Source of the DNA: Vulcanimicrobiota bacterium
GTDB lineage: Bacteria > Vulcanimicrobiota > Vulcanimicrobiia > Vulcanimicrobiales > Vulcanimicrobiaceae
NCBI GenBank assembly: GCA_963757945.1
Contig: CAVWTN010000002.1
Span: 458,262-522,261, forward strand
DNA length: 64,000 nucleotides
Direction of reading: 5' to 3'
Positions within the stretch are counted from its first letter, which is position 1. Every line of letters starts with the position of its first letter. The translations under genes and the position numbers were made by a program. Of the stretch, positions 30,281-64,000 are shown one piece after another. The notes beneath the pieces were generated by a model. That model did not search any database. It saw only the letters and a list, made by a program, of their open reading frames with translations, and was not told the origin of the DNA.

Positions 30281-30303
30281 GTTCCCTTACCTTCTCCCTG
30301 TTA

Positions 30304-30633: not shown

Positions 30634-31409
30634 CGCTGTACCCTCGCCGCTATGCGGGCTCGCGAACGGTCCTCCGCCACGAAGCTGTACGGCGCGGACG
30701 GGCCGCTCAGCACCAGATCGAGTTCCGGGCGCTCGCTGCACAGGCTCGCAAACGCCCTGCGGAATCCCGGCACCGCGGCCGGATCCACGAGATACGCGGC
30801 GCTGCAGGCGATGCGCTCGCTCGCCAGCTCGGACCAACGCACTTCGCGCGCGTGGGGAGAGAGGCGCTCGTCGATGCCGTCCCGCGCCGCGCGGAGGCGC
30901 TCTTCGAGAATCTGCGCCTTCAAATGCACGCGCATCAGCCCGCGCAAGTAACGAGCGCCCGCACCGGAACCGCGAATGTTCGGCCCTGCAGGCAAAGCTG
31001 CCGCCGGCGCGCTTGCGCCGTCCCGCAGAACGGAAGACGTGGTCAGGATCGCCAGATCCAACTCCGCCATGGGGCCCAAGCGCGCCAAGTCCTCGTGCAA
31101 CTGCTCGCGCTGCCGTGCGAGCGTTTCGACGACGGCCGTCTCGCCGCGCAGTACCGTGCCGAACCGGGCAGGAAGCGCGGAGTTCCGCTGGCGTACCGCC
31201 TCGACGACGGCTTGGTGAGCGAAGAGATGCTTGGCCGTATGCTCCCAACGTTCCTGACTCACCGCGCCGGTGACGGCCGCAAGGCCTGCGCCGCGGACCA
31301 AAGCCAACGCCTCACCCTCCACGCCGCGCACGCCGGGCGCCAGCTCGGCCTGCGGCGGAACGATCGCGTAGACGTACAGGTATCGTTCGCTACGGTCGAG
31401 CGTTTCCAC
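30630..31409 (-). CDS. gvpF: gas vesicle protein GvpF/GvpL family
   Basis: N-terminal YLYVYAIV… and GvpF-family architecture. GTG start; ATGA-type overlap with gvpK. Confidence 0.75.
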   Translation of the reverse strand: METLDRSERYLYVYAIVPPQAELAPGVRGVEGEALALVRGAGLAAVTGAVSQERWEHTAKHLFAHQAVVEAVRQRNSALPARFGTVLRGETAVVETLARQREQLHEDLARLGPMAELDLAILTTSSVLRDGASAPAAALPAGPNIRGSGAGARYLRGLMRVHLKAQILEERLRAARDGIDERLSPHAREVRWSELASERIACSAAYLVDPAAVPGFRRAFASLCSERPELDLVLSGPSAPYSFVAEDRSRARIAARVQR

Positions 31410-31581
31410 GGTATTGCGGCTCCCCTACGCACAGCGCAATCACGAGTTGCAGGTCGAGGAAGAGCAGGTCGACGCCGGCGACCGAGATCGTCAGATTCCC
31501 CGCCAGCACGAGGCCCCGATCGAGGACCCGGTCGAGCAGATCGAGGAGGGTGACCTCGTCCGGCTCTGCAACGGCGCTCAT
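31390..31581 (-). CDS. gvpS: small GvpA-family gas vesicle protein (GvpS/GvpM-like)
   Basis: 63 aa. TLLDLLDRVLDRGLVLAGNLTISVAGVDLLFLDLQLVIA is a GvpA-fold core. Confidence 0.7.
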   Translation of the reverse strand: MSAVAEPDEVTLLDLLDRVLDRGLVLAGNLTISVAGVDLLFLDLQLVIALCVGEPQYRGNARP

Positions 31582-32423
31582 CGGTGCACGCTCCCTTGCT
31601 CTTCGATGGATTCAGGATCGACGAAATTGTACGGCGGCCACGGCCCGCTATATTCGACCTTGATCTCCGGGCGCAGTTGACCGATGCGCTCCACCATCTC
31701 CAAGAACGCACCTTGCTGCGCGCGCCGGACCAAGAATGTCCGGCGCAGGATCGCGAGCGTCGCTTCGCCGTCCGTGAGGCGCAGGGGCGAGAGCTCCCCG
31801 CCGGCGACCGCGAGCGAACGCAGTTCCGCGTACGCCTGGTCGCTCACGCCTGCGATCGTGTCTTCGACGTGACGCTTCAAGAGGGTCGCGATTTGGCGAT
31901 CCACGAGATAGGCGCGGCCGGCACTCGACGACGCCCGCTTCTCCAGCAACTGCGCGATCTGGGGGACGGAGCGGGAAAGGCTCTTGCGCAGGAGCGTCCG
32001 ATCGAACGTCAGCCGCACCTCGAACTCGTCGCAGCCCTCCAACCGTTGCAGGATGCGTAAGATCGAGGACTGACTTTCCGCAAGCGCCGCAAGAATGTCG
32101 TCATCGCTCGCATAGACGCTGAACAACCGCGCGGGCACGATGCCCAGGCGCTGCTGCAGCCCTTCGACGACCCGTTCGTGCTCGGAGGCGACCTGCCCGA
32201 GCCACGTATCGTCTTGCGCGAGCGAGCGCACGCGCTCCGCTTCGAAATCGGCAAGCGGAACGGCGCTCACGAGTGCGCTTAACTCCCCATAACTGATCGC
32301 GCCGACGAGCGTCGCGCCGTCCACGCCGAGGATCGCGAGCGGCAGCCGGCTGCGAACATCGCTCTCCTTCGCGATTCCGTACAGATACCACGCATGCCCG
32401 GGCGGCAATACTCGATCGATCAT
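31578..32423 (-). CDS. gvpL: gas vesicle protein GvpL/GvpF family
   Basis: 282 aa, WYLYGIAKE…GELSALVSAVPL. Start at ATG 32423, which overlaps the gvpG stop by 1 nt. Confidence 0.8.
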   Translation of the reverse strand: MIDRVLPPGHAWYLYGIAKESDVRSRLPLAILGVDGATLVGAISYGELSALVSAVPLADFEAERVRSLAQDDTWLGQVASEHERVVEGLQQRLGIVPARLFSVYASDDDILAALAESQSSILRILQRLEGCDEFEVRLTFDRTLLRKSLSRSVPQIAQLLEKRASSSAGRAYLVDRQIATLLKRHVEDTIAGVSDQAYAELRSLAVAGGELSPLRLTDGEATLAILRRTFLVRRAQQGAFLEMVERIGQLRPEIKVEYSGPWPPYNFVDPESIEEQGSVHR

Positions 32424-32671
32424 CAGAGCGACGCCTTGTATTCGCGAATCTCGTTCAAGCGCTGCAAGATGCTCGCTTCCGCCTCGCTGTACTCCGCTTC
32501 CGAGATCTCGCCCAAATCGAGTTGCAAGCTCAGCCGCATCAGCGCGCTCTCGAGGCGGCCTTCGTCGTACATCTCCGCGTCGACCGCCTCTTTGATCTTC
32601 TCGAACACAAAGAGCAGCCCGCGGGCCGGTCCCGCAACCGGCAGACACACGAGATCGGTGACCAATCCCAT
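32423..32671 (-). CDS. gvpG: gas vesicle protein GvpG
   Basis: 83 aa. MGLVTDLVCLPVAGPARGLLFVFEKIKEAVDAEMYDE…LDLGEISEAEYSEAEASIL is GvpG-like. RBS AAGGAGAG. Confidence 0.7.
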   Translation of the reverse strand: MGLVTDLVCLPVAGPARGLLFVFEKIKEAVDAEMYDEGRLESALMRLSLQLDLGEISEAEYSEAEASILQRLNEIREYKASL

Positions 32672-32673
32672 CG

Positions 32674-33477
32674 CTAGCTCTCCTTTTCCCAGGCGAGATC
32701 GACGAAATCGAACGGCGGCAGAGGCCCGACGTACTTCAGAATCAGCCGTTCGGCATTCCGCTCGGCGATCGCGTTGACGGCCGCGTCGAAGCGCGCTTCG
32801 CTTGCTTTCTCCACGAGAAACGCCGCGTTGACGATCATCATGTCCGTGAGCAGGGCGTTCGTCTTCATCTCCACGCACAGCGGTGCAAGCTCGCTCTCGA
32901 TCTCCTCGGCGTCGCGCGTGCGCAGCAGGGCCATGGCCTGCTCCACCAATTGCCCGAGCCGGATCTGCTCGAAGTGGCCCGACCCCGATACCATCTCGTC
33001 ACGCAACGAGCGGATGTCGTCCCGCGCGGCCACGATCTCGGCGAACACGCGCTCCCGTTTCCAAAGCACCTTGAGCCCGAGCTCGACTCGCCCGCGGACA
33101 TGCGCCAAGATCGCGAGCAGCTCGTCGCGCCGCGCTTCAAGAACCTGCTCGCCGACACGCGCGTCGCTCGCGGAGATCAATCCGAATTGCGCGGGGATCA
33201 CCTCGCTGAACGTGAGGATCTCTTCGAGAACGCGCTGATGCGTCAGGAGGTTCTCGCGGCTAACGTCGTAGCGAGCTGCCGGAGAGTCGCTGACGATCGC
33301 CGCGAGCTCGCCGGCCCGGACGGCGCGCACCGCGTCGCCGCGCCCGCCGACCGCGGCCGCGGCGAACGCACCGCGCCCTTCGAGCGCGGCTGCGGGAACG
33401 ATGCCGTAGACATAAACGCCGGCCGCGCCCGCGGACGTTCCCGCCTCGCTCGCGGCGAGCTTCTCGTCACTCACCAT
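32674..33477 (-). CDS. gvpF: gas vesicle protein GvpF
   Basis: 267 aa. GVYVYGIVPAAA…LAAIVSDSP… is GvpF-family. Start at ATG 33477. Confidence 0.8.
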   Translation of the reverse strand: MVSDEKLAASEAGTSAGAAGVYVYGIVPAAALEGRGAFAAAAVGGRGDAVRAVRAGELAAIVSDSPAARYDVSRENLLTHQRVLEEILTFSEVIPAQFGLISASDARVGEQVLEARRDELLAILAHVRGRVELGLKVLWKRERVFAEIVAARDDIRSLRDEMVSGSGHFEQIRLGQLVEQAMALLRTRDAEEIESELAPLCVEMKTNALLTDMMIVNAAFLVEKASEARFDAAVNAIAERNAERLILKYVGPLPPFDFVDLAWEKES

Positions 33478-35659
33478 GGGCCGCCTCTTCCGCCTGGAGG
33501 GCCGCGACGTGCGCTTCGCGCGCCTGCACGAACGCGTTCTCGAAGTGACGCCGCTCGATGACGAACGGCGTGAACGCCGCCTGGGGTTCGCGCTCGATCG
33601 ATTCGCGGATCGCGAGCATCGCCGCACGCCGGCAAAGCCCCTCGAGATCCGCGCCGACGAGGCCCTCGGTGCTCGCTGCGATGCTCTTGAGGTCCACGTC
33701 TGCACTCAACTGCCGGCCGCGCGTGTGCACGCCGAGGATCGACAGGCGCGCAGCCCGGTCCGGGGCGTGCAACGGGAGAATCACGTCGAAGCGCCCGGCG
33801 CGCAACAGCGCGGGATCGATCATGTCCGGGCGATTGGTCGCGCCGAGAATGACGACGCCGCGCAATTCCTCGATGCCGTCGAGTTCGGCGAGGAACTGCC
33901 CCACGACACGTTCCGCAACGTGCCCCCCGCCGCTCCCGTCGCCGCGGCGCGGCACGAGCGCGTCGATCTCGTCGAAGAAGACCATGCACGGCGCGGCTTG
34001 CCTGGCCTTGTGGAAGACTTCGCGGATGCCTTTCTCCGACTCGCCGACCCACTTCGAGATCAGCGCGGGCCCCTTGACCGAGATGAAATTGATGCCGCTC
34101 TCCGCCGCGGCCGCCCTCGCCACGAGCGTCTTTCCCGTTCCCGGCGGCCCGGTCAGGAGCAACCCTTTCGGTGGATTCACCTTGGCAAACGCAAAGCGGT
34201 CGGCATACGCGAGCGGCCAGGCGACCATCTCACGAATGACTTCCTTCACCTCGTCGAGCCCGCCGACGTCGTCCCACTTCACGTCCGGCAGTTCGGTGAA
34301 GACCTCGCGAATGGCCGAGGGCTCCGTCTCCGTGAGCGCATCCGTGAAGTTCCGCATCGAGATTTCGAGCTTGAGCAGCTCCTCGTAGGGAAGCTGCGGG
34401 TTCTTGAAATCGATCGTCGGGAGAGCGTTTCGCAAGCAGCTCATCGCGGCTTCGCGGCACACCCCGGCGAGATCGGCGCCGACGAAGCCATGCGTGATCG
34501 CCGCCAGCTTCTCGAGGTCCACATCCTTCGCGAGCGGCATGCCGCGCGTGTGAATCTGCAAGATCTCCAGACGCCCCACCTTGTCGGGGACGAGGACCGA
34601 GATTTCGCGATCGAAGCGCCCCGGCCGGCGCAGCGCCGGGTCGATGCTATCCGGAATGTTCGTCGCGCCGATGACGACGACGTGCCCGCGGGACTCGAGG
34701 CCGTCCATCAGGGTCAGGAGCTGCGCGACCACGCGCTTCTCGACTTCCCCTTGGACCGCTTCGCGCTTGGGCGCGATCGCGTCGATCTCGTCGATGAAGA
34801 CGATGCTCGGCGCGTGGTTCTGCGCCTCATCGAAGAGCTTGCGCAGATTTGCTTCCGACTCGCCGTAGAACTTGTGGATGATCTCCGGACCGTTGACGTG
34901 CACGAAGTGCGCGGAGGTTTCGGCTGCGACCGCTCGCGCGATCAGCGTCTTGCCGCACCCGGGCGGCCCGTAGAGCAAAACTCCCTTGGGCGGCTCGATG
35001 CCCAGACGCGCGAAGACCTCCGGGTAGCGCATCGGCAACTCGATCATCTCGCGAATCCGCGCGATCTCTCTCCCCAGGCCACCCACGTCCTCGTAGGACA
35101 CTCCCGGCGCGCGGCCTCCCAGGGTGGCATCTCCGGCGATGCGCACGACGGTGGCTCGATCGACGTAGACGGGACCGGACGGGCTCGTGTCCTTGACGAT
35201 GAAATCGACCGCCCGCGAACCGAACAGCGCGACGCGCACGCGATCGCCCACCACGAGCGGCACGTTCTCGAGCAGCGTGCCGATGTAGCGCGAATCTTGC
35301 GCGCCGAGCGCCTTGGCGGTGACGACCGGCGTGAGCGCGAGACTCGCCGCGCTGTGGTTGCCCGCCTTCTTGAGTTGCACGCTATCGTCGAGCGCCGCCT
35401 GCGCGTTCTCCCGGATGATCCCGTCGATCTGGACCAGACCCTTGCCGCGCTCGCCGGGGAACGCCGGCATGATCCGCGCCGTGGTGTTGCGTTTGCCTGC
35501 GATCTCCACGATGTCGCCGATCGCGCAACCGAGACGCTCGATATCCGCCGGATCGACGCGCGCGATCGCCCGGCCGACGTCTTTCGGAAGCGCCTCCGCA
35601 ACGCGCAGCGCGAGCGCCGCCCGCTCGCCTACCGCGCCGCTTGCTCCGGGTTGACTCAT
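33467..35659 (-). CDS. CDC48/VAT-like double-ring AAA+ ATPase (N-domain + D1 + D2) embedded in the gvp operon
   Basis: 730 aa. CDC48-type N-domain, two Walker A sites (GPPGCGKT, GPPGTGKT), two Walker B sites (IVFIDEID, MVFFDEID), and a second-region-of-homology with Arg fingers. Confidence 0.85.
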   Translation of the reverse strand: MSQPGASGAVGERAALALRVAEALPKDVGRAIARVDPADIERLGCAIGDIVEIAGKRNTTARIMPAFPGERGKGLVQIDGIIRENAQAALDDSVQLKKAGNHSAASLALTPVVTAKALGAQDSRYIGTLLENVPLVVGDRVRVALFGSRAVDFIVKDTSPSGPVYVDRATVVRIAGDATLGGRAPGVSYEDVGGLGREIARIREMIELPMRYPEVFARLGIEPPKGVLLYGPPGCGKTLIARAVAAETSAHFVHVNGPEIIHKFYGESEANLRKLFDEAQNHAPSIVFIDEIDAIAPKREAVQGEVEKRVVAQLLTLMDGLESRGHVVVIGATNIPDSIDPALRRPGRFDREISVLVPDKVGRLEILQIHTRGMPLAKDVDLEKLAAITHGFVGADLAGVCREAAMSCLRNALPTIDFKNPQLPYEELLKLEISMRNFTDALTETEPSAIREVFTELPDVKWDDVGGLDEVKEVIREMVAWPLAYADRFAFAKVNPPKGLLLTGPPGTGKTLVARAAAAESGINFISVKGPALISKWVGESEKGIREVFHKARQAAPCMVFFDEIDALVPRRGDGSGGGHVAERVVGQFLAELDGIEELRGVVILGATNRPDMIDPALLRAGRFDVILPLHAPDRAARLSILGVHTRGRQLSADVDLKSIAASTEGLVGADLEGLCRRAAMLAIRESIEREPQAAFTPFVIERRHFENAFVQAREAHVAALQAEEAAHGE

Positions 35660-36156
35660 TTCTTCTTCTCGAGGCGAACCTCGAGAATGGCATTCTTAAA
35701 GCTTCGCTGCAGGTTCGACGCATCGACCTGCGCCGGCAACAGGAGTTCCTTGGAGTATTTCCGTTCGCGACCGGCGGCCTCGAGCGTCAGGATGTCGCCC
35801 TCAACTTCGACCTTGATGTCTTCGTCCGTGACGCCCGGCAGCTCCGCCACGACCAAGACATGATCGGCTTCGTCGAAAATGTCGACGAGCGGCTCGCGCA
35901 CCTCGGAAACTTCGGGCCCGTGTGCCGTGGGGCGGATGTTGCCGAACTGCTCGATGACCGGAACGCCGCCGAGCGACTTGATCGACACGCCGTAGAGGCC
36001 GCGCAATTCACGCGGACCGCTCAGCTCGCCGCTGCGCCGGATTTCCTTGCCCTCGCCGAGCTCACCGAGCAGATCGATGAAACCGCCCAGCCCTTTGAGG
36101 ATCTCGCCGAGCCCGAGATCCGTGCGCGGATCGCTTGTCTTCCGTTTGCTGCTCAT
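35656..36156 (-). CDS. gvpH: Hsp20/alpha-crystallin family protein (GvpH-like)
   Basis: 166 aa with an alpha-crystallin domain (ADHVLVVAELPGVTDEDIKVEVEGDILTLEAAG). ATGA overlap with the CDC48-like gene. Confidence 0.75.
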   Translation of the reverse strand: MSSKRKTSDPRTDLGLGEILKGLGGFIDLLGELGEGKEIRRSGELSGPRELRGLYGVSIKSLGGVPVIEQFGNIRPTAHGPEVSEVREPLVDIFDEADHVLVVAELPGVTDEDIKVEVEGDILTLEAAGRERKYSKELLLPAQVDASNLQRSFKNAILEVRLEKKK

Positions 36157-36159
36157 CTT

Positions 36160-36459
36160 CTAGTACTCCAACGTCAGCGCATGGCGGTCACTCGCGGCAG
36201 GCGGGGCTTCGATGCCGCCGGCGATCGGGCGCGCGATCGGCCGTGATTCGAGGTCGGCGATCTGCCCGTCGACCTCGCGCAAACGCGCCTCGACGGTTTG
36301 CTGTCTTTTCCGCGCGAGCTCGACTTCGCGCACGAGCCGCCGGCGTTCGCCCGCCAGCCGCTGGAGTTGCAATGCACGGCTCACTTCGCTGCGCAACCCG
36401 ATCGACGGGGGCAGCCCGCGAAACGACCGCACGTCGTGCATGGTGCTAGGTTGCCCCAT
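36160..36459 (-). CDS. small predicted coiled-coil protein in the gvp operon (unknown)
   Basis: 99-aa ORF tightly packed between gvpN (2-nt gap) and the Hsp20 gene, with RBS GGAG. Helical Arg/Glu-rich composition. It could be spurious in this high-GC DNA. Confidence 0.4.
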   Translation of the reverse strand: MGQPSTMHDVRSFRGLPPSIGLRSEVSRALQLQRLAGERRRLVREVELARKRQQTVEARLREVDGQIADLESRPIARPIAGGIEAPPAASDRHALTLEY

Positions 36460-36461
36460 GG

Positions 36462-37391
36462 TTACTTCCGCCTTTTCGGACTGCCGGTTTCCCGGATGCG
36501 CCGCCGCGACTTTTCAGATCGATCGGAGCCGCCGCTGACGAGCACATCAGCGCACGTCTGCTCGAACGCCGGCTCTCCGGGAACCGCGCGTCCACCGGAG
36601 ATCGACAAGACCTTGGCGATCATGATGGAGCGGCGCAGCGTGGACCCTACGTGGCCGGACTCATCCCTCCAGTGATGCACGACGTCGACGATCCGTTCGG
36701 CATCCTCGAGGGGAACGCCGGACTTCGCTCGAGTGATCTCGATCTCCGTATCGCGATCGAAGCCGCTCATGTCGATCGTGATCATCCGGTCGAGCAGTGC
36801 ATCCTGCGCGCCGTGCACGCCCACGTACTCGTCGGGATTCGACGTGAAGATCGCGGAGAACGCGGGGTGAACCTTCAGATACTGCACGCCGTTCCTGCTC
36901 GTGGGCAACATGAGCAGCTTCTCTTCCAACACGGCGAGCAGGACGTTGTTCGCCTCCGCGCGCGAGCGCGAGAACTCGTCGTAAAGCAGCGTCAGCCCTT
37001 CGCGGCAGGCGACCGTCAAACGATTGTCGACCCACTGTTGCGTCACGTCCTCCTCGGTCTTGAGGACCGAGTGGACGAAGTTGTCGACGACCCTGCGGCG
37101 GCGATAGCCGGATCGCCCGCCGACAAGGTCCGATGTGCCGAACTCGTCGTCACCGCACAGCAACGCCAGCGGCCGGCCCAGGTGATGCGCGACGTGCAGC
37201 GCCAAGGTCGTTTTGCCCGAGCCGGACGGTCCGCGGAAATGCACCGGATAGCCGGCCCGGATATACGTGAGGGCCCGTGCGGTCAGGGCCCGGATGAAGT
37301 CGGTCTCAACGAAATCCGCGCGTGGCCGGCTCGTGATGACCGAACTCCCTCCGACCGCAGGCGCGCTACCGTTCAACGTGACGCTCGCCAA
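36462..37391 (-). CDS. gvpN: gas vesicle protein GvpN (MoxR-like AAA+ ATPase)
   Basis: Walker A HFRGPSGSGKTTLA, Walker B LLYDEFSR. TTG start at 37391 preceded by AGGAGG at 5-nt spacing. Confidence 0.85.
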   Translation of the reverse strand: MASVTLNGSAPAVGGSSVITSRPRADFVETDFIRALTARALTYIRAGYPVHFRGPSGSGKTTLALHVAHHLGRPLALLCGDDEFGTSDLVGGRSGYRRRRVVDNFVHSVLKTEEDVTQQWVDNRLTVACREGLTLLYDEFSRSRAEANNVLLAVLEEKLLMLPTSRNGVQYLKVHPAFSAIFTSNPDEYVGVHGAQDALLDRMITIDMSGFDRDTEIEITRAKSGVPLEDAERIVDVVHHWRDESGHVGSTLRRSIMIAKVLSISGGRAVPGEPAFEQTCADVLVSGGSDRSEKSRRRIRETGSPKRRK

Positions 37392-57499: not shown

Positions 57500-57586
57500 G
57501 TGGTGCGCGAGACTGGACTCGAACCAGCACGCCCTTGCGGGCGCTAGCCCCTCAAGCTAGTGCGTCTACCAATTCCGCCACTCGCG
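57500..57586 (-). tRNA. tRNA-Leu (anticodon GAG), CCA encoded
   Basis: Minus-strand sequence GCGCGAGTGGCGGAATTGGTAGACGCACTAGCTTGAGGGGCTAGCGCCCGCAAGGGCGTGCTGGTTCGAGTCCAGTCTCGCGCACCA folds as a class-II tRNA with a long variable arm and anticodon loop TTGAGGG. Confidence 0.85.
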
Positions 57587-57760
57587 CACGGGGGCCCAAA
57601 GCTTGGGCGCGGGAAAGCGCCAAAGCGATTAACCCGCGTATGGTATCGTATCGGCCGACGCCGTGCAAGACACGCCGCGGGGTATCCCGCACGGGGCAGC
57701 TATCCCCGGCGACGGGCGTGATTGACAGGCTGCGGCGGGGGGTGGTACCGTCGGGAGCGT

Positions 57761-57841
57761 CATGTTTGCGCGTGCTTTCGGTCCGGCGCCGTGCTGTTGT
57801 CCCCCCGTAACGCTTCGTCGGGAAGGGTGCATTCGCGCGTA
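57761..57841 (+). other. putative 26-codon leader ORF (MFARAFGPAPCCCPPVTLRREGCIRA*) with three consecutive Cys codons
   Basis: ATG at 57761 with GGGAG upstream. Follows a TTGACA-N18-TACCGT promoter-like sequence at 57721..57750. A terminator follows at 57870..57906. Confidence 0.3.
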
Positions 57842-57869
57842 GACGGCGTCAGCGCATGACGCAAGCGTT

Positions 57870-57906
57870 GACCCCCTGCCGGCGGCAGGGGGTCTTTTCA
57901 TTTTTC
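57870..57906 (+). terminator. intrinsic terminator / attenuator 44 bp upstream of the nif-like genes
   Basis: GACCCCCTGCC-GGC-GGCAGGGGGTC hairpin followed by TTTTCATTTTTC. Confidence 0.55.
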
Positions 57907-57949
57907 TGCGAGGCCCTCGCCTCGCGTAGCACCCGGAAGGAACGCATCG

Positions 57950-59416
57950 GTGGACATCAACCTTGATAGCGCGGTCGTGCCGGTTCGCGAAGCGCGACTC
58001 GGCTCGGTCAGCGGCTACGTCGGGACGGCCGCCGATCTGGTGGCCCGCTCGGCGGCAGGCACGCTCGCGGACCGCGGCCGGAGCTTCACGCAGTGCCTCT
58101 CCTGCTCGGAGATGTGCGCGGTCTCGCTGCTTGCCTATATCCAAGATGCCGCGGTCGTGAGCCACGCGCCGCTCGGGTGCGCGGCGAGCTTCGGCGGAAT
58201 GAACCAGCTCAATCGCTGGGGTCAGCTGCGACGCGGCCTGCAGGTCGGCAACGCGCACTTGGTCAGTTCCAACCTGACGGAGAGCGACACGATCTTCGGG
58301 GCCGCCGCGAAGCTCGAGCAGGCCGTGCGGGCGGCCTACGAACGCTTCGACCCCAAGGCGATCTTCGTCGCGACCGCCTGCGCGTCGGCGATCATCGGCG
58401 AGGATCTCGCCGGCCCCCTCGACGATCTCGAACGCGAGCTCGGCGTTCCGATCGTGCCCGTCCACTGCGAAGGCTTCCGCTCCCAGCTATGGTCGAGCGG
58501 TTTCGACGCCGCGTATCACGCGATTCTGCGGAAGATCGTCAAGCCCGCGCAGCGGAAGCGCAACACGGTCAACGTCGTCAACTTCTGGCACGACGACGTC
58601 TTCTCGCACCTGCTCGAGCCGCTCGGGCTGACCGCGAACCTGATCGTTCCGTTCTCGACGATCGCGCAATTGGAGACGATCTCCGAGGCGGCGGCGACCG
58701 TGCAGATGTGCGCCACGCTCGGCACCTATCTCGCGAGCGGCCTCGAGGAATTGCACGGCGTCCCGGCGATCAAGGCTCCACAGCCGTACGGCATCGCCGG
58801 AACGGATGCGTGGCTGCGCGCGCTCGCCCGCGCGACCGGGAAAGAATCGCAGGCAGAAGCGCTGATCGCCGCCGAGAAGGACGCGATCGCGCAGGAGCTC
58901 GCGGACCTGCGCCGAGAGCTCGGCGGCGTGCGCGCGTACGTCGCCGCCGGGAGCGCGCACGGACACAGTCTGATCAGCGTCCTGCGCGAACTGGGCGTCA
59001 CGATCGAGGGCGGCTGCTTCTATCACCACGATCCGAAGTTCGATCACGGCGACCCCGCGGGCGATACGCTCGGGCACGTCGTGCGGACGTACGGCGATTT
59101 CAAGGCCGGCGTCTGCAACAAGCAGCTCTTCGAGCTGATCAACCTCGCGAATCGCATCAAGCCCGACATCTTGATCGTCCGGCACGGCAACCTCGCGGTC
59201 TGGGGCGCGAAGCTCGGCATCCCGACGTTCCTGTTGCAGGACGAGCACCTCTCGCTCGGCTATCGCGGGATCGTCCGCTACGGACGCAAGATCCTGGACT
59301 TCGTGAGCAATCCCGCGCTCGTGAAGCATCTGGCGAAACACACGCGGCTCCCGTACAAGCCGTGGTGGTTCGAGCAGAATCCCTACGCGTTCTTGAAGGC
59401 GGAACGGACGCCGTGA
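57950..59416 (+). CDS. nitrogenase component-1-like oxidoreductase, NifD/NifE-like subunit
   Basis: 488 aa. NifD-type cluster-ligand region (CAVSLLAYIQDAAVVSHAPLGC) and further conserved Cys/His positions. GTG start with AGGAA RBS. Confidence 0.65.
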   Translation: MDINLDSAVVPVREARLGSVSGYVGTAADLVARSAAGTLADRGRSFTQCLSCSEMCAVSLLAYIQDAAVVSHAPLGCAASFGGMNQLNRWGQLRRGLQVGNAHLVSSNLTESDTIFGAAAKLEQAVRAAYERFDPKAIFVATACASAIIGEDLAGPLDDLERELGVPIVPVHCEGFRSQLWSSGFDAAYHAILRKIVKPAQRKRNTVNVVNFWHDDVFSHLLEPLGLTANLIVPFSTIAQLETISEAAATVQMCATLGTYLASGLEELHGVPAIKAPQPYGIAGTDAWLRALARATGKESQAEALIAAEKDAIAQELADLRRELGGVRAYVAAGSAHGHSLISVLRELGVTIEGGCFYHHDPKFDHGDPAGDTLGHVVRTYGDFKAGVCNKQLFELINLANRIKPDILIVRHGNLAVWGAKLGIPTFLLQDEHLSLGYRGIVRYGRKILDFVSNPALVKHLAKHTRLPYKPWWFEQNPYAFLKAERTP

Positions 59417-60735
59417 GCACGATCGTCGAGCAGCCGAGAAACTTCTGCCCGCTGGGCGGCCAGCAAACCGTGCTCGCGATCGAGCGCGCGATCCCGATCG
59501 TCCACGCGGGGCCGGGCTGCTCGTCGATGCTCTTCGGCGGGCTCGCGATGGCGAACGGGTTCCAGGGTTCGGGTTATGCCGGCGGCGGAACGGTCCCGAG
59601 CACGAATGCGGGCGAACGCGAGGTCGTCTTCGGCGGCGAGGAGCGCCTGCGCGAAGAGATCGAAGGCGCGCTCCAAGTGCTCGACGCCGATCTCTACGTC
59701 GTGCTGACGGGCTGCACCGCGGACCTCGTCGGGGACGACGTCGCACAAGTCGTGCGGCCGTTCCGCGAGCGCGGCGTGCCGATCGTGCACGCCTCGACCG
59801 GCGGCTTCAAAGGGTACTCGTGCTTGGGGCACGAGCTCGTCGTGCGGGCGATCGTCGAGCAATTCCTGGAACCCGCGACCGCGACGATCCCGGGGCTCGT
59901 CAACGTGTGGTCGGTCGTGCCGTACAAGGACACGTTCTGGGCCGGGAATCTCGAGGCGATTCGCGAGTTGCTCGAAGGGATCGGGCTCGAGGCGAACATC
60001 CTCTTCGGCCACGATTCCGGCGGCGTCGCGGCCTGGCGCCGCGTCCCGGCGGCGCAATTCAACCTCGTCGTTTCGCCCTGGACGGGGCTCGCGATCGCGC
60101 ACGATCTCGAGGCGGCGTTCGGCACGCCGTACCTGCACTATCCGGTCTTCCCGATCGGCGCCGTCGAATCGAGCCGCTTCCTGCGGGAGGTCGGCGAGTT
60201 CGCCGGGATCGCGCCCGAGATCGTCGAGCGCTTCATCGAGCGCAAGGAGAACCGGTTCTATCACTACCTCGACCGCGCCGCCGACTTCTTCCTCGAAGCG
60301 CGCTGGGACTTGCCCGACCGTTTCGTCAGCATCGCCGATTCGTTTTACACGATCGGGATCGCGCGCTTCCTCGTGAACGAACTCGGCTTGTTGCCCGGGC
60401 ATCAATTCATCACCGACGATCCGCCGGAGGAGAGCCGCGCGCTCCTCTCCGATCTGCTCGCGAACCTCACGCCGAAGGTCTCGGCGCACGTCACGTTCAC
60501 GCACGACGGCGGCGAGATCGCAAACACGCTCCGCGCCCTGCGCAGCGACGAGAAGCCGATCGTCTTCGGCACGAGCTGGGACAAAGATATCGCGCGCGAA
60601 CTGCGCGGCTACAAACTCAGCATCGGCCTCCCGACGACCGACCGCATCGTCCTCGACCGCGCCTACGCCGGCTACGCCGGAGGCCTACGCCTCATCGAAG
60701 ACATGTACGCCGCCGTCCTCTCCAGCTCCCAATAG
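59413..60735 (+). CDS. nitrogenase component-1-like oxidoreductase, NifK/NifN-like subunit
   Basis: 440 aa, NifK/N-type region (CPLGGQQTVLAIERAIPIVHAGPGC). GTGA start/stop overlap with the preceding subunit gene. Confidence 0.65.
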   Translation: MSTIVEQPRNFCPLGGQQTVLAIERAIPIVHAGPGCSSMLFGGLAMANGFQGSGYAGGGTVPSTNAGEREVVFGGEERLREEIEGALQVLDADLYVVLTGCTADLVGDDVAQVVRPFRERGVPIVHASTGGFKGYSCLGHELVVRAIVEQFLEPATATIPGLVNVWSVVPYKDTFWAGNLEAIRELLEGIGLEANILFGHDSGGVAAWRRVPAAQFNLVVSPWTGLAIAHDLEAAFGTPYLHYPVFPIGAVESSRFLREVGEFAGIAPEIVERFIERKENRFYHYLDRAADFFLEARWDLPDRFVSIADSFYTIGIARFLVNELGLLPGHQFITDDPPEESRALLSDLLANLTPKVSAHVTFTHDGGEIANTLRALRSDEKPIVFGTSWDKDIARELRGYKLSIGLPTTDRIVLDRAYAGYAGGLRLIEDMYAAVLSSSQ

Positions 60736-60799: not shown

Positions 60800-61318
60800 T
60801 CACAACGAGCGGGCGATGTCATCCATCCTAAGGATCATCCGGCGTGGATTCGACGGAAGTGACACGAAGCCGACACTCGCGTAGAGCTTGGTCGCTCCGG
60901 GAGATGCATCCAGCGCGACGTCGAGGACGACGAATGCCGAAGCGACGGTTGCCGACGGCGTGTGCGCCTCCCGGAGCGCGTGACTCAAGAGTTTTCGGCC
61001 GAGCCCTTGCCCTTCGTAGCGTTCGTCGACGGCGAAACGGCCGAGCAGGGTCGCAGGGACGGGGAAGGTTGGGCGCCCACGCCTGAAAGCGTCAGGAAGC
61101 CCCGTGAGTTCGAGGGTGCACGCCGAGAGCGTGAAAAATCCGGCGATCGCACCCGTGCGATCGGCCAAGACGTGGACCCGGGTCGTACGATTCTCGTGTT
61201 GTTTGCGAGCGCTCGTGCGCAGAAAGACGTTGAGGCTCTGCGCCCGGCAATGGAATCGATCGCGGAGATGGTGAGGCGCGAGCAGTTGTAGGTGAAAGCC
61301 GTCAGCCGCGAGCGGCAT
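60800..61318 (-). CDS. GNAT-family N-acetyltransferase toxin (TacT-like)
   Basis: GNAT fold motifs (RFAVDERYEGQGLGRKLL). Overlaps and is co-directional with the upstream DUF1778 antitoxin gene. Confidence 0.7.
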   Translation of the reverse strand: MPLAADGFHLQLLAPHHLRDRFHCRAQSLNVFLRTSARKQHENRTTRVHVLADRTGAIAGFFTLSACTLELTGLPDAFRRGRPTFPVPATLLGRFAVDERYEGQGLGRKLLSHALREAHTPSATVASAFVVLDVALDASPGATKLYASVGFVSLPSNPRRMILRMDDIARSL

Positions 61319-61586
61319 CAGGCCCGGTGAGCGCTAGCAATTCGCGCAGTTCAGGAAGCTCGCCGTGCCGCTCCCGCACGAGCAACTCCATGACGAGGCG
61401 GCTGTCGTCCTCGGTCAGCGTCCAGCGCTCGATGGAGGCCGCTGCTTCGTCCGCCTTCTCGATGACTGCCGCAATGATGAAATCGCTCATCGAACGCCCC
61501 GAGAGGGCCGCGATCTTCCGGACGCGCTCCTTCAGAGGCGCCGGAATCCGAAGGTCGACCCGTTCGGTGGCCGGAGTGGTCTTCAT
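61302..61586 (-). CDS. DUF1778-family antitoxin (TacA-like, RHH)
   Basis: 94 aa. MKTTPATERVDLRIPAPLKERVRKIAALSGRSMSDFIIAAV… is the DUF1778 signature. Start at ATG 61586. Confidence 0.7.
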   Translation of the reverse strand: MKTTPATERVDLRIPAPLKERVRKIAALSGRSMSDFIIAAVIEKADEAAASIERWTLTEDDSRLVMELLVRERHGELPELRELLALTGPDAARG

Positions 61587-61756: not shown

Positions 61757-62212
61757 TCATTTTCCGAAGAGCTGGAAGCGCGCGATGTTGAAGCGCAGAT
61801 AAAGATAGCAGCCGACGCAGAAGCCCGCGAGCGCCACCGCCGCGGCCAGCGCAGCGAACGACGAGAAGATCCAACCCACGAGCGGCGCGTGGGCGAGAAA
61901 CGCGATCTGCGCGATCCCGAGAAAGATCGTGGCGAGCGAGTTGTTGAAGCGCATCAAGCGGCGGTCCTCGGTTTCGGCCGTCGCGTTCCAGCGCGCGAAG
62001 ACGCGCGAGCCGATCTGATAGATCAGGCTCCCGCGCGAGCCGAACAGCGCGGCGCTCCCCAGGATCAGGAACAGGGCGGTCGTGATCAGCGGCTGCTGCA
62101 GCACGACCGCCGCGATGACGCCCAGCAACAGCGTCCAGCGGTTCAGCAGCACGATCGGCAGCGGAATGTCGGGTGCGCAGCCCTGCGGCACCGCTTGCGT
62201 CTCGCCGCTCAC
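61757..62212 (-). CDS. small membrane protein (DUF4395-like)
   Basis: 151 aa, about 4 TM helices. 4-bp overlap with the corrinoid-protein gene. Confidence 0.45.
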   Translation of the reverse strand: MSGETQAVPQGCAPDIPLPIVLLNRWTLLLGVIAAVVLQQPLITTALFLILGSAALFGSRGSLIYQIGSRVFARWNATAETEDRRLMRFNNSLATIFLGIAQIAFLAHAPLVGWIFSSFAALAAAVALAGFCVGCYLYLRFNIARFQLFGK

Positions 62213-62874
62213 GCGGGTTGCCTGCGGCTTTCGAGCAACGAGGTCGCGAGCTTCGCGGCGGAAGCTGCGTTTCCGGCGTAGCCGTCGGCGCCGATCTTGC
62301 GCGCGAACGCGGCGGAGATCGGCCCTCCGCCCACGATCACGCTAAAGCGTTCGCGCAGTTGCTCGCGTTCCAGCAGGCGGACGATCTCGGCCATGTTCTC
62401 CATCGTCGTCGTCATCAGCGTCGAGACGGCGATGATGTCGGCCCCCGTCTCCTTCGCGCGTTCGACGAAGACGTGCGGCGCGATGTCGCGGCCGAGATCG
62501 ACGACGTCGAAGCCGGCGGTCTCGAGCATCATCTTGACGAGATTCTTGCCGATGTCGTGCGTGTCGCCTTCCACGACGCCGATCACGACGGTGCCCTTCT
62601 TGCCGCCCGCATCGACGCGCACGTGCGGGCGCAGGATGTCCAGCCCCGCGTACATCGCATCGGAGCAGAGCAGCAGCTCGGGGATGAAATACTCTTCTTC
62701 TTCGAAGAGCTGCCCCGCGCGCTCCATGCCGTGCGCGAGCCCTCGGTCGATCGCGGCGTACGCGTCGAGGCTCTCGTCGACGACCCGGTTCGCGTTCTCG
62801 ACGGCTTTCTCGGCGTCCATCTCGACGACGGCGTCGGAAAGGTTCGAGAGCAGATTCACTTCGAGGCTAGACAT
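62209..62874 (-). CDS. cobalamin-binding corrinoid protein (methyltransferase cognate, MtbC/MttC-like)
   Basis: B12-binding N-terminal cap plus Rossmann B12 domain with DxHxxG (GDTHDIGKNLV). Start at ATG 62874. Confidence 0.75.
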   Translation of the reverse strand: MSSLEVNLLSNLSDAVVEMDAEKAVENANRVVDESLDAYAAIDRGLAHGMERAGQLFEEEEYFIPELLLCSDAMYAGLDILRPHVRVDAGGKKGTVVIGVVEGDTHDIGKNLVKMMLETAGFDVVDLGRDIAPHVFVERAKETGADIIAVSTLMTTTMENMAEIVRLLEREQLRERFSVIVGGGPISAAFARKIGADGYAGNAASAAKLATSLLESRRQPA

Positions 62875-64000
62875 ATTCGAGTCTCCTTTGGGCCGGTTCG
62901 GGAACGTTCGCGACCGCGGGGGCCTCGAAGCCGAGGCTCGCGACGAAGGTCTTCTGGAACTCGGGGAACGTCGCCAGATCGAGCGCGTCGACGCGCCCCG
63001 CGACCTGGGCCATCGCGGCGCGGGCGGGCGCATTGACGAGCAGCGCGCGGCCGCCCGTCTTCGAGGTGTTGCCGAGAAACGTGATGCGCCCCGCGAACGC
63101 GCGCGGCAAGAGTCCCAAGCGAAACAGGCTCTCCGCGCGCACGTGGTAGCCGAACGAGCCTGCGATGAAGACGCGATCGACCGCTTCGGGCGCGACGCCG
63201 GCCTGCGCGAGCAACATCTCGATCCCGCACCGCACGGCGCCCTTCGCGAGCTGGACGTGCCGGATGTCGCGCTGCGTCAGATGCACCCCGGGCGCAAGCG
63301 CGAACGCGGGCTTGCGCTCGCGTTCCACGATGTGCCGCGCGAACTGCGGCGCGAGCTCCGCCGTTTTGCGCAGCCTGCCCGCTCGATCGACGATGCCGCG
63401 CGCGACGAGCGCGCCGGCCGCGTCGAGCAAGCCGCTGCCGCACAGCCCGGCGGGATCGGCGCCGCCGATGACGCCCAGGCTCACCTCGCCGTCCTCGCCG
63501 ATCTCCACGCTCTCGATCGCGCCGCTCGCTGCGCGCATGCCGCAGCTGATGTTCATGCCCTCGAACGCGGGGCCCGCGGCCGTCGACGTCGCCGTCAGCT
63601 TGCCGTCGACGGCGAGCACCATCTCGCCGTTCGTGCCGATGTCGATGAAGAGCGAGACGCCCGCCAGCGTCTGCAGGCGCGCGGCGAGGATCCCCGAGGT
63701 GATATCCGCACCGACGAACCCCGAGATGACCGGCGGCAAGTAGATCGCGCCGCCCTCGGCGAGCGCCAGGCCGTGCTCGCGCGCGTCGAGCAGCGCCGGC
63801 AGCTCCAGATTCGAGAGATACGGAGACTTGCCCAGCGTCGCCGGATCCGTTCCGGTCGCGAGGTGGAGCATGCACGTGTTGCCGCTGTAGACGACCTCGT
63901 AAATATCTGCGCGCCGCACGCCCGCGGCCGCCGCGACCTCGTCGAGCAGGTCGCCGAGCGCGCCCGCGACGGCCGCGTGCAGCTCTTGCAGCCCGCCGGG
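62867..64000 (-). CDS. corrinoid activation/regeneration protein (RACo-type ASKHA ATPase), 5'-truncated by window edge
   Basis: ASKHA/DUF4445-like C-terminal domain (FIDIGTNGEMVL…AGSFG…). The reading frame stays open to the window end, so the N-terminal part lies beyond 64000. Confidence 0.65.
   Translation of the reverse strand, partial: PGGLQELHAAVAGALGDLLDEVAAAAGVRRADIYEVVYSGNTCMLHLATGTDPATLGKSPYLSNLELPALLDAREHGLALAEGGAIYLPPVISGFVGADITSGILAARLQTLAGVSLFIDIGTNGEMVLAVDGKLTATSTAAGPAFEGMNISCGMRAASGAIESVEIGEDGEVSLGVIGGADPAGLCGSGLLDAAGALVARGIVDRAGRLRKTAELAPQFARHIVERERKPAFALAPGVHLTQRDIRHVQLAKGAVRCGIEMLLAQAGVAPEAVDRVFIAGSFGYHVRAESLFRLGLLPRAFAGRITFLGNTSKTGGRALLVNAPARAAMAQVAGRVDALDLATFPEFQKTFVASLGFEAPAVANVPEPAQRRLEYV

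What the first reader, a model, noticed from the sequence alone, without database searches (positions are those of the whole stretch)
57950..60735. NifD/NifK-like gene pair without a NifH-like reductase gene in the window
Two overlapping genes (GTGA junction) encode 488- and 440-aa proteins with the characteristic nitrogenase component-1 cluster-ligand regions (…SHAPLGC…, …HAGPGC…). No nifH/BchL-type ATPase gene precedes them: upstream is a tRNA and a leader region. None follows: downstream is a convergent TA pair. The organism shows no other nif genes here. Nitrogenase-like enzymes with non-N2 substrates include methylthio-alkane reductases, CfbCD and DPOR. A corrinoid protein and RACo lie 1.5 kb away.
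Basis: partly seen in the sequence, partly recalled or inferred. Interest (0 to 1): 0.6.

Follow-up and report, generated by a model that had tools for sequence, protein, structure and literature searches.

The report
Orphan Mar-like nitrogenase-like DK pair
These two genes encode the catalytic half of a nitrogenase-like enzyme related to methylthio-alkane reductase, probably used to extract sulfur from organosulfur compounds without oxygen; lacking an adjacent NifH-type partner gene is common in this family.

Summary
Window 57950-59416 and 59413-60735 encode 488- and 440-aa PF00148 proteins with a GTGA overlap. The window has no NifH, NifB or NifX gene.

They are not NifDK or NifEN. The best solved relatives by far are Rhodospirillum rubrum MarD and MarK (E 1e-138 and 1e-143). 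All six P-cluster cysteines, the [Fe8S9C] cysteine and the Mar-specific Arg-His loop are kept. Six substrate-channel residues differ.

Both subunits are closer to R. rubrum's orphan NflDK pair, whose function is unknown (56% and 60% identity), than to MarDK (46% and 52%).

DK pairs with no H gene nearby are common here: 11 of 39 fully flanked loci. Metagenomes holding close relatives carry an unlinked NifX-MarH-MarB operon. No MarH was found for the 2.5-Mb source contig, but that could not be settled.

A conserved Cys-Cys leader peptide plus intrinsic terminator precedes the pair. The same device precedes related NFL, MarH/B and sulfate-assimilation operons, which points to cysteine-starvation control.

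The nearby corrinoid protein and RACo are the tail of a methyltransferase operon. In relatives that operon starts with a second, divergent DK pair.

Verdict: a new member of a known kind. The link between Mar-like genes and corrinoid methyltransferase clusters is already published.

The parts
57722..57751 (+). Promoter-like site: TTGACA, 18 nt spacer, TACCGT.
   Evidence: Read from the sequence. TTGACA and the TAC of the second hexamer are invariant in the aligned leaders of relatives L004, L001 and L003. The consensus scan did not call it, so this is inference.
57762..57842 (+). Leader ORF of 26 codons, MFARAFGPAPCCCPPVTLRREGCIRA, with three consecutive Cys codons at 57792-57800.
   Evidence: ORFs of the same length with an invariant TGTTGT lie upstream of the orthologous D genes in L004 and L001. 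Similar Cys-Cys leaders precede the L005 MGC-DK operon, L005 D2K2, the L129 NifX-MarH-MarB operon and the L129 sulfate-assimilation operon. GGGAG lies 5 nt before the ATG.
57870..57905 (+). Intrinsic terminator: an 11-bp GC-rich stem followed by a T-run, 45 nt before the D start codon. This is the attenuator terminator.
   Evidence: Called by the terminator scan. The hairpin is conserved in L004, L001 and L003 and forms in every minimum-free-energy fold.
57950..59416 (+). nflD/marD-like alpha subunit, 488 aa. P-cluster Cys52/77/144; [Fe8S9C] ligands Cys254 and Arg411-His412.
   Evidence: PF00148 at 2.7e-80. MarD 9fmg_A at 1.2e-138 over the full length. Ligand map. 55.6% identity to R. rubrum NflD against 46.5% to MarD. 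dN/dS 0.10-0.11.
59413..60735 (+). nflK/marK-like beta subunit, 440 aa. P-cluster Cys12/36/101.
   Evidence: PF00148 at 7.3e-61. MarK 9d9u_C at 1.1e-143. Ligand map. 59.5% identity to R. rubrum NflK against 51.7% to MarK. dN/dS 0.10-0.16.
61757..62212 (-). DUF4395 membrane protein, the last gene of the neighbouring D2K2-Mlp-RACo-corrinoid operon.
   Evidence: PF14340 at 6.6e-23. It holds the same position after the corrinoid protein in syntenic L004, and follows the two Mlp genes in L005.
62209..62874 (-). Methyltransferase-cognate corrinoid protein, 221 aa.
   Evidence: B12-binding and B12-binding_2. The best NCBIfam matches are corrinoid-protein models (MtgC 206 bits against a cut-off of 310; TIGR02370 195 against 215), all below their curated cut-offs.
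62867..64000 (-). RACo/RamA-type ATP-dependent corrinoid reductive activase. Its C-terminal 350+ aa are present; the gene runs off the window end.
   Evidence: RACo_C_ter at 8.7e-70 and Raco_middle. The full-length orthologue in L004 is 557 aa with a Fer2 domain.

Best explanation
The two genes encode the catalytic (DK)2 component of a Group-IV nitrogenase-like enzyme of the methylthio-alkane reductase (Mar) family. More precisely, they are of the orphan NflDK type, also found in Rhodospirillum rubrum.

Cofactors (inferred from conserved ligands). The enzyme most likely carries a P-cluster at the D/K interface and an [Fe8S9C] L-type cluster in D.

Partners (inferred). It most likely receives electrons from a MarH-type Fe protein and depends on a MarB radical-SAM maturase. 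Both would be encoded elsewhere in the genome and shared with other DK paralogues.

Reaction (inferred). It most likely cleaves a C-S bond of an organosulfur compound reductively under anoxic conditions, so that the cell can use the sulfur. The substrate is probably not the DMS, EMS or methylthioethanol of canonical Mar, because six residues lining the substrate channel differ.

Regulation (inferred from a conserved leader). Expression appears to be gated by a cysteine-sensing leader-peptide attenuator, a Cys-Cys-Cys leader ORF followed by an intrinsic terminator. The pair would then be made when cysteine is scarce.

Pathway (inferred). It works alongside a corrinoid methyltransferase module (Mlp methyltransferases, corrinoid protein, RACo) and a second, divergent DK pair encoded next door. 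The methyltransferases probably demethylate the methylthio product or substrate.

What is shown: homology, ligand conservation, gene context, leader conservation and purifying selection. What is inferred: the substrate, supply of H and B in trans, and the regulatory logic.
For: Family. MarD and MarK are the top solved matches over the full length, at 1e-138 and 1e-143, against about 1e-30 for NifD.

Ligands. MarD C66/C91/C158/C270/R428/H429 map to C52/C77/C144/C254/R411/H412. MarK C32/C56/C121 map to C12/C36/C101 (residue roles from PMC12552129). W195, F199, C270, H375, R428 and H429 are invariant in all 90 relatives at >=45% identity.

Subclade. An NJ tree places the window D with R. rubrum NflD (P0111). 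Identities are 55.6% and 59.5% to NflD/K against 46.5% and 51.7% to MarD/K. R. rubrum nflDK is also an H-less pair, sits behind a MetY-like gene, and is induced under sulfate limitation (PMC13474568).

H in trans.
- 11 of 39 fully flanked homologous loci have no NifH-like gene within 10 kb, and 14 of 39 have two or more DK-like pairs.
- The 86%-identical relative has four to five DK-like pairs around one NifX-H-B set.
- The metagenome that holds the syntenic relative L004 also holds a NifX-MarH-MarB operon with no DK, next to sulfate-assimilation genes (L129). That H is MarH-type: 486 bits to 9fmg_D against 282 to NifH.

Sulfur control. Cys-Cys leader ORFs with terminators lie upstream of this pair and its orthologues. 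They also precede the MGC-DK operon, D2K2, the X-H-B operon and a PAPS-reductase/APS-kinase/ATP-sulfurylase operon. The rate is 45 of 777 small CC ORFs, against 74 of 6310 for seven control dicodons.

Functionality. dN/dS is 0.10-0.16.

Methyltransferase link. In L005 the order is ferredoxin, corrinoid protein, three Mlps, RACo, D, K on one strand, with a 9-nt gap before D. In L047 RACo, corrinoid protein, Mlp, B, H, D and K all lie on one strand. The association is published (PMC10418091).
Against: - No MarH from the 2,513,026-bp source contig appears among the 120 closest relatives (77-100% identity) of the relative's MarH, nor among the members of the 15 clusters whose members were listed. 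Supply of H in trans is therefore unproven for this genome.
- The MarB search was uninformative.
- No substrate is known for any member of the NflDK type. R. rubrum nflDK is dispensable for Mar activity, and R. palustris NflDK3 showed no activity on the compounds tested.
- The proposed antiterminator pairing is no better than shuffled controls (z from -2.9 to +0.85). Minimum-free-energy folds keep the terminator even with a ribosome masked at the Cys codons.
- The tree is a quick NJ tree without reference sequences for NFL groups IV-A, IV-D, IV-E and IV-F.
Confidence: 0.7

Rival explanations
1. It is a true methylthio-alkane reductase isozyme that reduces DMS, ethyl methyl sulfide or methylthioethanol to methanethiol plus a hydrocarbon, as R. 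rubrum MarDK and R. palustris Mar1/Mar2 do.
For: It shares the fold family and all cluster ligands with MarDK, including the Arg-His hallmark. W195, F199 and H375 are conserved. Its context and regulation are sulfur-related.
Against: It is closer to R. rubrum NflDK, which is dispensable for Mar activity, than to MarDK. The channel residues M70, C73, Q74, Y98, I101 and H194 are C, S, L, M, L and L here, and this set is fixed in the window, L004, L005 and L001 orthologues. Four of these positions (M70, C73, Y98, I101) are the ones proposed to set the Mar1/Mar2 specificity difference.
Confidence: 0.15
2. The enzyme is independent of an H protein. The DK pair would be reduced by the neighbouring RACo (an ATP-dependent ASKHA reductase with a 2Fe-2S domain) or by a ferredoxin, instead of a NifH-type Fe protein.
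For: No MarH was found for the source contig. In L005 RACo ends 9 nt before D in the same operon, and a small 4Fe-4S ferredoxin ORF opens that operon.
Against: RACo sits with its usual partners, a corrinoid protein and MtaA/MtbA-like methyltransferases. L047 has RACo and MarH/MarB in the same cluster. The metagenomes holding the closest relatives contain MarH operons. In R. rubrum Mar activity strictly needs MarH.
Confidence: 0.04
3. In this particular genome the pair is a functionless remnant, left behind after loss of the MarH/MarB operon.
For: MarH was not detected for the source contig. The loci rearrange often between relatives.
Against: Both reading frames are intact and all ligands are kept. 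dN/dS is 0.10-0.16. The promoter, leader and terminator are conserved. dN/dS averages over the whole divergence, so a very recent loss of H cannot be excluded.
Confidence: 0.07
4. It is a NifEN-like scaffold that matures or stores the L-type cluster for the other DK paralogues rather than acting as a reductase itself.
For: nifE is the best-scoring NCBIfam model for both proteins. R. rubrum nflDK has no known catalytic role. Related genomes carry several DK pairs.
Against: The nifE scores are far below the cut-off: 141.9 and 80.1 against 505. Mar cofactor assembly is reported to occur in situ without NifEN or nflDK. The pocket residues are conserved within the clade, as expected for a substrate site.
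Confidence: 0.04

Closest known systems
Rhodospirillum rubrum orphan NflDK (P0111 and its neighbour in CP000230.1, about 923-926 kb)
   Same: It is the closest named relative: 55.6% (D) and 59.5% (K) identity, in the same NJ subclade. It is a DK pair with no NifH/NifB gene within 10 kb. It has the Mar-type Cys and Arg-His ligands. It is expressed under sulfate limitation, and its function is unknown (PMC13474568).
   Different: In R. rubrum the pair follows a MetY-like gene and is controlled by the LysR regulator SalR. Here it stands alone behind a Cys-codon leader/terminator, next to a corrinoid methyltransferase operon. The channel residues also differ: C-L-N-L-C-V there against C-S-L-M-L-L here, at MarD positions 70, 73, 74, 98, 101 and 194.
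Methylthio-alkane reductase MarBHDK of R. rubrum (PDB 9FMG, 9D9U; NFL Group IV-C)
   Same: It is homologous over the full length, at E 1e-138 and 1e-143. The P-cluster and [Fe8S9C] ligands are identical, including the Loop-I Arg428-His429.
   Different: Identity is only 46.5% and 51.7%. The window protein lacks 17 residues, in three short gaps, that MarD has near its N terminus. Six channel or active-site residues are changed. No marB or marH lies in the locus.
Rhodopseudomonas palustris NflDK3 (RPA2363-64)
   Same: It is a Mar-like DK pair without its own H and B genes, is up-regulated under sulfate limitation, keeps the cluster ligands, and has no identified substrate (bioRxiv 10.64898/2026.08.20.746119).
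   Different: The authors place it in a different clade from R. rubrum NflDK.
Type 1 mlp gene clusters (MGC; Kountz and Balskus, PMC10418091)
   Same: [quoted passage not shown] In relatives there are also two to three MtaA/MtbA-like methyltransferases. That paper already reports Mar-like nitrogenase genes in or near non-selenium MGCs.
   Different: In this lineage the MGC genes are operonic with a second, divergent DK pair (D2K2) or with this DK pair, and all are preceded by Cys-codon leaders. The Mlp genes themselves lie beyond the window end.
Polycysteine leader ORF attenuators of mycobacteria (Canestrari et al., bioRxiv 10.1101/834739; predicted earlier in PMC1262725)
   Same: A short upstream ORF with consecutive Cys codons precedes sulfur and cysteine metabolism operons. 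Several operons share the device.
   Different: The mycobacterial elements are leaderless and act on translation by unmasking a ribosome-binding site, and no terminators were found there. Here each leader is followed by a strong intrinsic terminator, which is the classical transcription-attenuator layout, and it controls nitrogenase-like genes.

Membership tests
Methylthio-alkane reductase (MarBHDK, NFL Group IV-C) | D and K subunits homologous to MarD and MarK over their full length. | tested here: met
   9fmg_A at 1.2e-138 (query residues 1-481) and 9d9u_C at 1.1e-143 (residues 4-439).
Methylthio-alkane reductase (MarBHDK, NFL Group IV-C) | Six P-cluster cysteines: MarD C66, C91, C158 and MarK C32, C56, C121. 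| tested here: met
   They map to D C52, C77, C144 and K C12, C36, C101. Residue roles are from PMC12552129.
Methylthio-alkane reductase (MarBHDK, NFL Group IV-C) | [Fe8S9C] ligands Cys270 and Loop-I Arg428-His429. | tested here: met
   They map to C254 and R411-H412. They are invariant in 90 of 90 relatives.
Methylthio-alkane reductase (MarBHDK, NFL Group IV-C) | Substrate-channel and active-site residues of proven Mar: M70, C73, Q74, Y98, I101, H194. | tested here: not met
   The window has C, S, L, M, L, L.
Methylthio-alkane reductase (MarBHDK, NFL Group IV-C) | Orthology to MarDK rather than to a paralogous NFL clade. | tested here: not met
   The pair is closer to R. rubrum NflDK than to MarDK in both subunits and in the NJ tree.
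Methylthio-alkane reductase (MarBHDK, NFL Group IV-C) | Cognate marH and marB in the operon or genome. | tested here: inconclusive
   Both are absent from the window. No MarH from the source contig is among the closest 120 hits. The MarB search was uninformative. The genome is not in the searchable collection.
Methylthio-alkane reductase (MarBHDK, NFL Group IV-C) | Reduction of DMS, EMS or methylthioethanol to methanethiol plus a hydrocarbon. | not testable with these tools
   This needs an enzyme assay or in vivo complementation.
Orphan NflDK type (R. rubrum nflDK) | A Mar-like DK pair encoded without an adjacent H or B gene. | tested here: met
   Shown for the window and for R. rubrum L130.
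Orphan NflDK type (R. rubrum nflDK) | Highest similarity and tree position with R. rubrum NflD and NflK. | tested here: met
   55.6% and 59.5% identity and the same NJ subclade. This is an NJ tree only, without bootstrap.
Orphan NflDK type (R. rubrum nflDK) | Induction under sulfur limitation. | tested here: inconclusive
   This is inferred only from the conserved Cys-codon leader and terminator. There are no expression data.
NifEN cofactor scaffold / canonical NifDK | Scores above the NCBIfam nifE/nifN/nifD/nifK cut-offs, and linkage to nifHDKENB. | tested here: not met
   The best score is nifE at 141.9 against 505. nifD scores 111.9 against 653 and nifK 68.3 against 427. No nif genes are in the window.
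Type 1 mlp gene cluster (neighbouring genes) | A corrinoid protein, a Ram/RACE activase and at least two Mlp (MtaA/MtbA-like) methyltransferases. | tested here: inconclusive
   The corrinoid protein and RACo are in the window. The Mlp genes are seen only in syntenic relatives L004 and L005 beyond the window end. Three of five Mlps pass the NF004889 cut-off. Assignment to the Mlp1/2/3 clades was not tested.
Cysteine-responsive leader-peptide attenuator | A short upstream ORF with consecutive Cys codons, conserved among orthologous and paralogous operons. | tested here: met
Cysteine-responsive leader-peptide attenuator | A terminator plus a mutually exclusive antiterminator whose formation depends on ribosome position. 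| tested here: inconclusive
   The terminator is present and conserved. A candidate antiterminator segment lies 11-25 nt after the Cys codons in all 11 leaders, but it is no better than shuffled controls.

The most novel reading that the evidence does not exclude
The 2.5-Mb source genome may truly lack any NifH-type Fe protein. In that case this conserved, selected DK pair, and the second pair in the adjoining operon, would be driven by another ATP-dependent reductant: the co-encoded RACo/ferredoxin system. That would make it the first nitrogenase-family catalytic component that works without a NifH-like partner.
Probability: 0.04. Interest if true: 0.85.

Novelty: new member of a known kind. 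Interest (0 to 1): 0.4.

Why it matters
Mar-type nitrogenase-like enzymes are a recently recognised anaerobic route from volatile organosulfur compounds to usable sulfur, and they release methane, ethane or ethylene. The orphan NflDK pairs are an acknowledged open question, because no substrate is known for them.

This locus adds three things.
- A distinct NflDK subclade with a conserved pocket, under purifying selection.
- Tight physical coupling to corrinoid S-methyltransferase genes and to a second NFL pair.
- A shared Cys-codon attenuator that also controls MarH/MarB and sulfate-assimilation operons in relatives.

Together these give a concrete regulon and a testable hypothesis: cysteine starvation induces C-S cleavage plus demethylation. 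If the missing MarH in the source genome were confirmed, the rule that the Fe protein is obligatory would be directly testable.

Tried and rejected
1. Riboswitch in the 360-nt leader. Rfam found nothing at gathering thresholds or at E<=1 except the tRNA and a chance anti-hemB hit.

2. Locating the source genome.
- An exact-protein look-up of D found no indexed contig.
- A chimeric D+MarH+MarB query against the species-representative genomes found nothing.

3. MarB in the source genome.

4. Antiterminator support.
- Constrained minimum-free-energy folds keep the terminator.
- Duplex energies are not better than shuffles.
- A column-wise covariation count was abandoned, because the palindromic CCGG shifts register between sequences.

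5. First terminator scan. It timed out and was rewritten.

6. NifEN, DPOR/COR and CfbD assignments. All were considered and rejected on scores and ligands.

7. Structure prediction. Not run, because sequence identity to solved MarDK is already decisive.
Full report
**1. Observation**

The pair is real and sits at the stated coordinates. ORF 57950-59416 (+) encodes 488 aa. A second frame from GTG 59413 to 60735 encodes 440 aa, and its GTG start overlaps the TGA stop of the first gene. Both proteins match Pfam PF00148 end to end, at 2.7e-80 and 7.3e-61. They fall far below every NCBIfam equivalog cut-off for NifD/K/E/N, Vnf, Anf, Bch and CfbD.

- The only tRNA, tRNA-Leu(GAG), lies at 57501-57587 on the minus strand.
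- Downstream is a convergent GNAT-toxin/TacA pair.
- Further on, all on the minus strand, are DUF4395, a corrinoid protein and a RACo-type activase that runs off the window end.

No NifH, NifB or NifX-like sequence is in the 64 kb. The rest of the window is housekeeping genes plus a gas-vesicle cluster.

**2. What the proteins are**

Against all solved structures the best matches are the methylthio-alkane reductase subunits of Rhodospirillum rubrum. MarD (9FMG/9D9U) scores 1.2e-138 and MarK scores 1.1e-143, both over the full length. NifD and NifE follow only at about 1e-30 and 1e-22.

The residues that Lago-Maciel et al. identified as cluster ligands (PMC12552129) are all present.

| Role | Mar residue | Window residue |
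|---|---|---|
| P-cluster | MarD C66, C91, C158 | D C52, C77, C144 |
| P-cluster | MarK C32, C56, C121 | K C12, C36, C101 |
| [Fe8S9C] cysteine | MarD C270 | D C254 |
| Mar-specific Loop I | MarD R428-H429 | D R411-H412 |

W195, F199, C270, H375, R428 and H429 are invariant in all 90 relatives at >=45% identity that I collected.

By contrast, six residues that line the substrate channel or the belt-sulfide site of MarD are changed. M70, C73, Q74, Y98, I101 and H194 are C, S, L, M, L and L here. This set is identical in the window, L004, L005 and L001 orthologues and is rare elsewhere. Four of these positions (M70, C73, Y98, I101) are the ones proposed to explain the different specificities of R. 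palustris Mar1 and Mar2.

**3. Which clade**

The large protein search found 651 relatives. The closest named one is a 487-aa R. rubrum protein (P0111) that is not MarD. Its locus shows a MetY-like gene followed by D and K, with no H within 10 kb. This is the orphan nflDK of R. rubrum. It is reported to be sulfate-limitation induced, SalR dependent, dispensable for Mar activity and of unknown function (PMC13474568; bioRxiv 10.64898/2026.08.20.746119).

The window proteins are 55.6% and 59.5% identical to NflD and NflK, against 46.5% and 51.7% to MarD and MarK. A neighbour-joining tree of 118 D-like sequences puts the window D with NflD rather than with MarD. The tree is quick and lacks reference sequences for several NFL groups. 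I therefore file the pair in the Mar/NflDK radiation of Group IV, not as an orthologue of proven Mar.

**4. The missing NifH**

Lack of an adjacent H gene is ordinary in this family.
- Of 39 homologous loci from species-representative genomes with 10 kb on both sides, 28 have a NifH-like gene nearby and 11 have none. Fourteen carry two or more DK-like pairs.
- The 86%-identical relative (L001/L006) has four to five DK-like pairs around one NifX-like, MarH and MarB set.
- The metagenome that holds L004 is informative. L004 is collinear with the window at 82-85% nucleotide identity from 47.2 to 64 kb. The same metagenome holds a contig (L129) with NifX-like, MarH and MarB but no DK, next to sulfite reductase and ATP-sulfurylase/APS-kinase/PAPS-reductase genes.
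- The sample that holds L005 also has a NifX-MarH-MarB-D-K contig.
- The L129 H is clearly MarH-type: 486 bits to 9fmg_D against 282 to the best NifH.

The parsimonious model is therefore one Fe protein and one maturase serving several DK paralogues in trans.

For the source genome itself I could not confirm this. Its D and K are indexed as lying on a 2,513,026-bp contig. No MarH from that contig appears among the 120 best hits (77-100% identity) of the relative's MarH, nor among the members of the 15 clusters whose members I listed, which include every top-120 cluster with more than one member. The genome is not in the searchable genome collection, and the MarB search was uninformative. The possible explanations are real loss, a fragmented gene call, or a second replicon.

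**5. Regulation**

The 360-nt region upstream of D is conserved in relatives. It contains, in order:
- a promoter-like TTGACA-N18-TACCGT at 57722-57751;
- a 26-codon ORF at 57762-57842, MFARAFGPAPCCCPPVTLRREGCIRA;
- a strong intrinsic terminator at 57870-57894 plus a T-run, 45 nt before the D start.

The orthologous leaders in L004 and L001 encode peptides of the same length. These diverge everywhere except the Cys-Cys pair, and TGTTGT is invariant.

Similar Cys-Cys leaders with terminators precede several other operons:
- the L005 ferredoxin-corrinoid-Mlp-RACo-D-K operon;
- the second DK pair (D2K2);
- the L129 NifX-MarH-MarB operon;
- the L129 sulfate-assimilation operon;
- a NifX-MarH operon whose leader has five consecutive Cys codons (L007);
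- several Firmicutes mar-like operons.

Small CC-containing ORFs followed by a terminator occur at 45 of 777, against 74 of 6310 for seven control dicodons. The loci are partly redundant, so this comparison is not fully independent.

This is the layout of a classical amino-acid attenuator keyed to cysteine. In every leader a segment 11-25 nt after the Cys codons can pair with the 5' arm of the terminator. In L004 and L001 the changes in that arm are matched on the candidate antiterminator side. However, duplex energies are no better than shuffled controls, and equilibrium folds keep the terminator. The antiterminator therefore remains an inference.

Polycysteine leader ORFs are known in mycobacteria, where they act on translation without terminators. 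No Rfam family matches the leader.

**6. The corrinoid neighbours**

In L004 the genes D2, K2, Mlp, Mlp, RACo, corrinoid protein and DUF4395 form one minus-strand operon. The window holds only its last three genes.

In L005 the corrinoid protein, three Mlps and RACo instead sit between the Cys leader and D-K. The same gene set is thus reshuffled but stays together. The Mlps are MtaA/MtbA-like, and three of five pass the NF004889 cut-off.

D2 is a more distant Mar relative: 218 bits to MarD and about 32% identity to the window D.

Kountz and Balskus already reported that Mar-like nitrogenase genes accompany non-selenium type 1 mlp clusters. They proposed that the reductase supplies or complements methyl-sulfide demethylation (PMC10418091). 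RACo therefore has its ordinary client here. L047 carries RACo and MarH/MarB in one cluster, which argues against RACo replacing the Fe protein.

**7. Function and rivals**

Both genes are under purifying selection, with dN/dS of 0.10-0.16 against three orthologues.

My best reading (confidence 0.7) has four parts.
- The pair is a Mar-family, NflDK-type catalytic component.
- With MarH and MarB supplied in trans, it reductively cleaves a C-S bond of an as yet unknown organosulfur compound.
- It is switched on by cysteine shortage.
- It works together with a corrinoid S-methyltransferase module.

The rivals are:
- a canonical Mar isozyme (0.15);
- a recent remnant after loss of H (0.07);
- an H-independent enzyme driven by RACo or a ferredoxin (0.04);
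- a NifEN-like scaffold (0.04).

**8. Verdict**

The feature it stressed, the absence of NifH nearby, is normal for this family. The family, the orphan arrangement and the corrinoid linkage are all published, so this is a new member of a known kind.

What is worth keeping:
- the distinct conserved pocket;
- the Cys-leader regulon that joins NFL, MarH/B, methyltransferase and sulfate-assimilation operons;
- the unresolved absence of MarH from the source contig.

Noticed in passing
L004:19494-21551 and L005:16578-19431 (beyond the window end at 64000): A second, divergent nitrogenase-like pair (D2 498 aa, K2 449-454 aa) heads the operon whose tail lies in the window (RACo, corrinoid protein, DUF4395). 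D2 is about 32% identical to the window D, and its best solved match is MarD at 2e-63. D2K2-type pairs also sit next to mar-like clusters in Heliophilum, Ruminiclostridium and Sporomusa loci.
   Followed up: partly
L129:2886 (-), L129:6314 (+), L007:675 (+), L006:4233 (+), L128:5467 (+), L053, L073, L080, L113, L117: Cys-rich leader peptides followed by terminators precede a PAPS-reductase/APS-kinase/ATP-sulfurylase operon, NifX-MarH-MarB operons (one leader has CCCCC), a permease-hydrolase-DK operon, and several Firmicutes mar-like operons. This suggests a widespread cysteine attenuation regulon around NFL genes.
   Followed up: partly
L001 and L006 (JGI contigs of 212 and 207 kb): The 86%-identical relative carries four to five DK-like pairs (the window orthologue plus paralogues at 60%, 36%, 34% and a D2 type) around a single NifX-like, MarH and MarB set, with an amino-acid permease, an alpha/beta hydrolase and an NMT1/ABC transporter interspersed.
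   Followed up: partly
window 57501-57950, compared with L005:3467-10001: The same tRNA-Leu, promoter and Cys leader are followed directly by D-K in the window and L004. In L005 they are followed by a small 4Fe-4S ferredoxin ORF, a corrinoid protein, three Mlps and RACo before D-K. Nucleotide homology to the window resumes only 25 nt before the D start, which marks a sharp recombination junction.
   Followed up: partly
L001:12894-13051 (-): A Cys-leader ORF (MGASYEAFADFCRCCRASTRSACIVVP) with a terminator points at the 3' end of K and has no gene behind it. Its homologue in L128 (5467, + strand) precedes a gene row that ends in NifX-MarH-MarB-D-K. It looks like a leader stranded by rearrangement.
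   Followed up: no
window 27965-37391 (-): A gas-vesicle gene cluster: two GvpL/GvpF genes, a GvpA-family gene, a CDC48-type double AAA ATPase, an Hsp20-family gene and a GvpN-like AAA_5 protein.
   Followed up: no
window 60800-61586 (-): A TacT-like GNAT toxin (172 aa) and a TacA antitoxin (94 aa) lie between K and DUF4395. The pair is also present in L005. In syntenic L004 it is replaced by a 437-aa gene with no Pfam match.
   Followed up: no
window 1-64000: The source organism could not be named. Its D gene and those of its >=80% relatives are absent from the species-representative genome collection. The nearest named loci, at 59-63% identity, are MAGs of Bacillota, Bryobacterales and Solibacteraceae.
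   Followed up: partly
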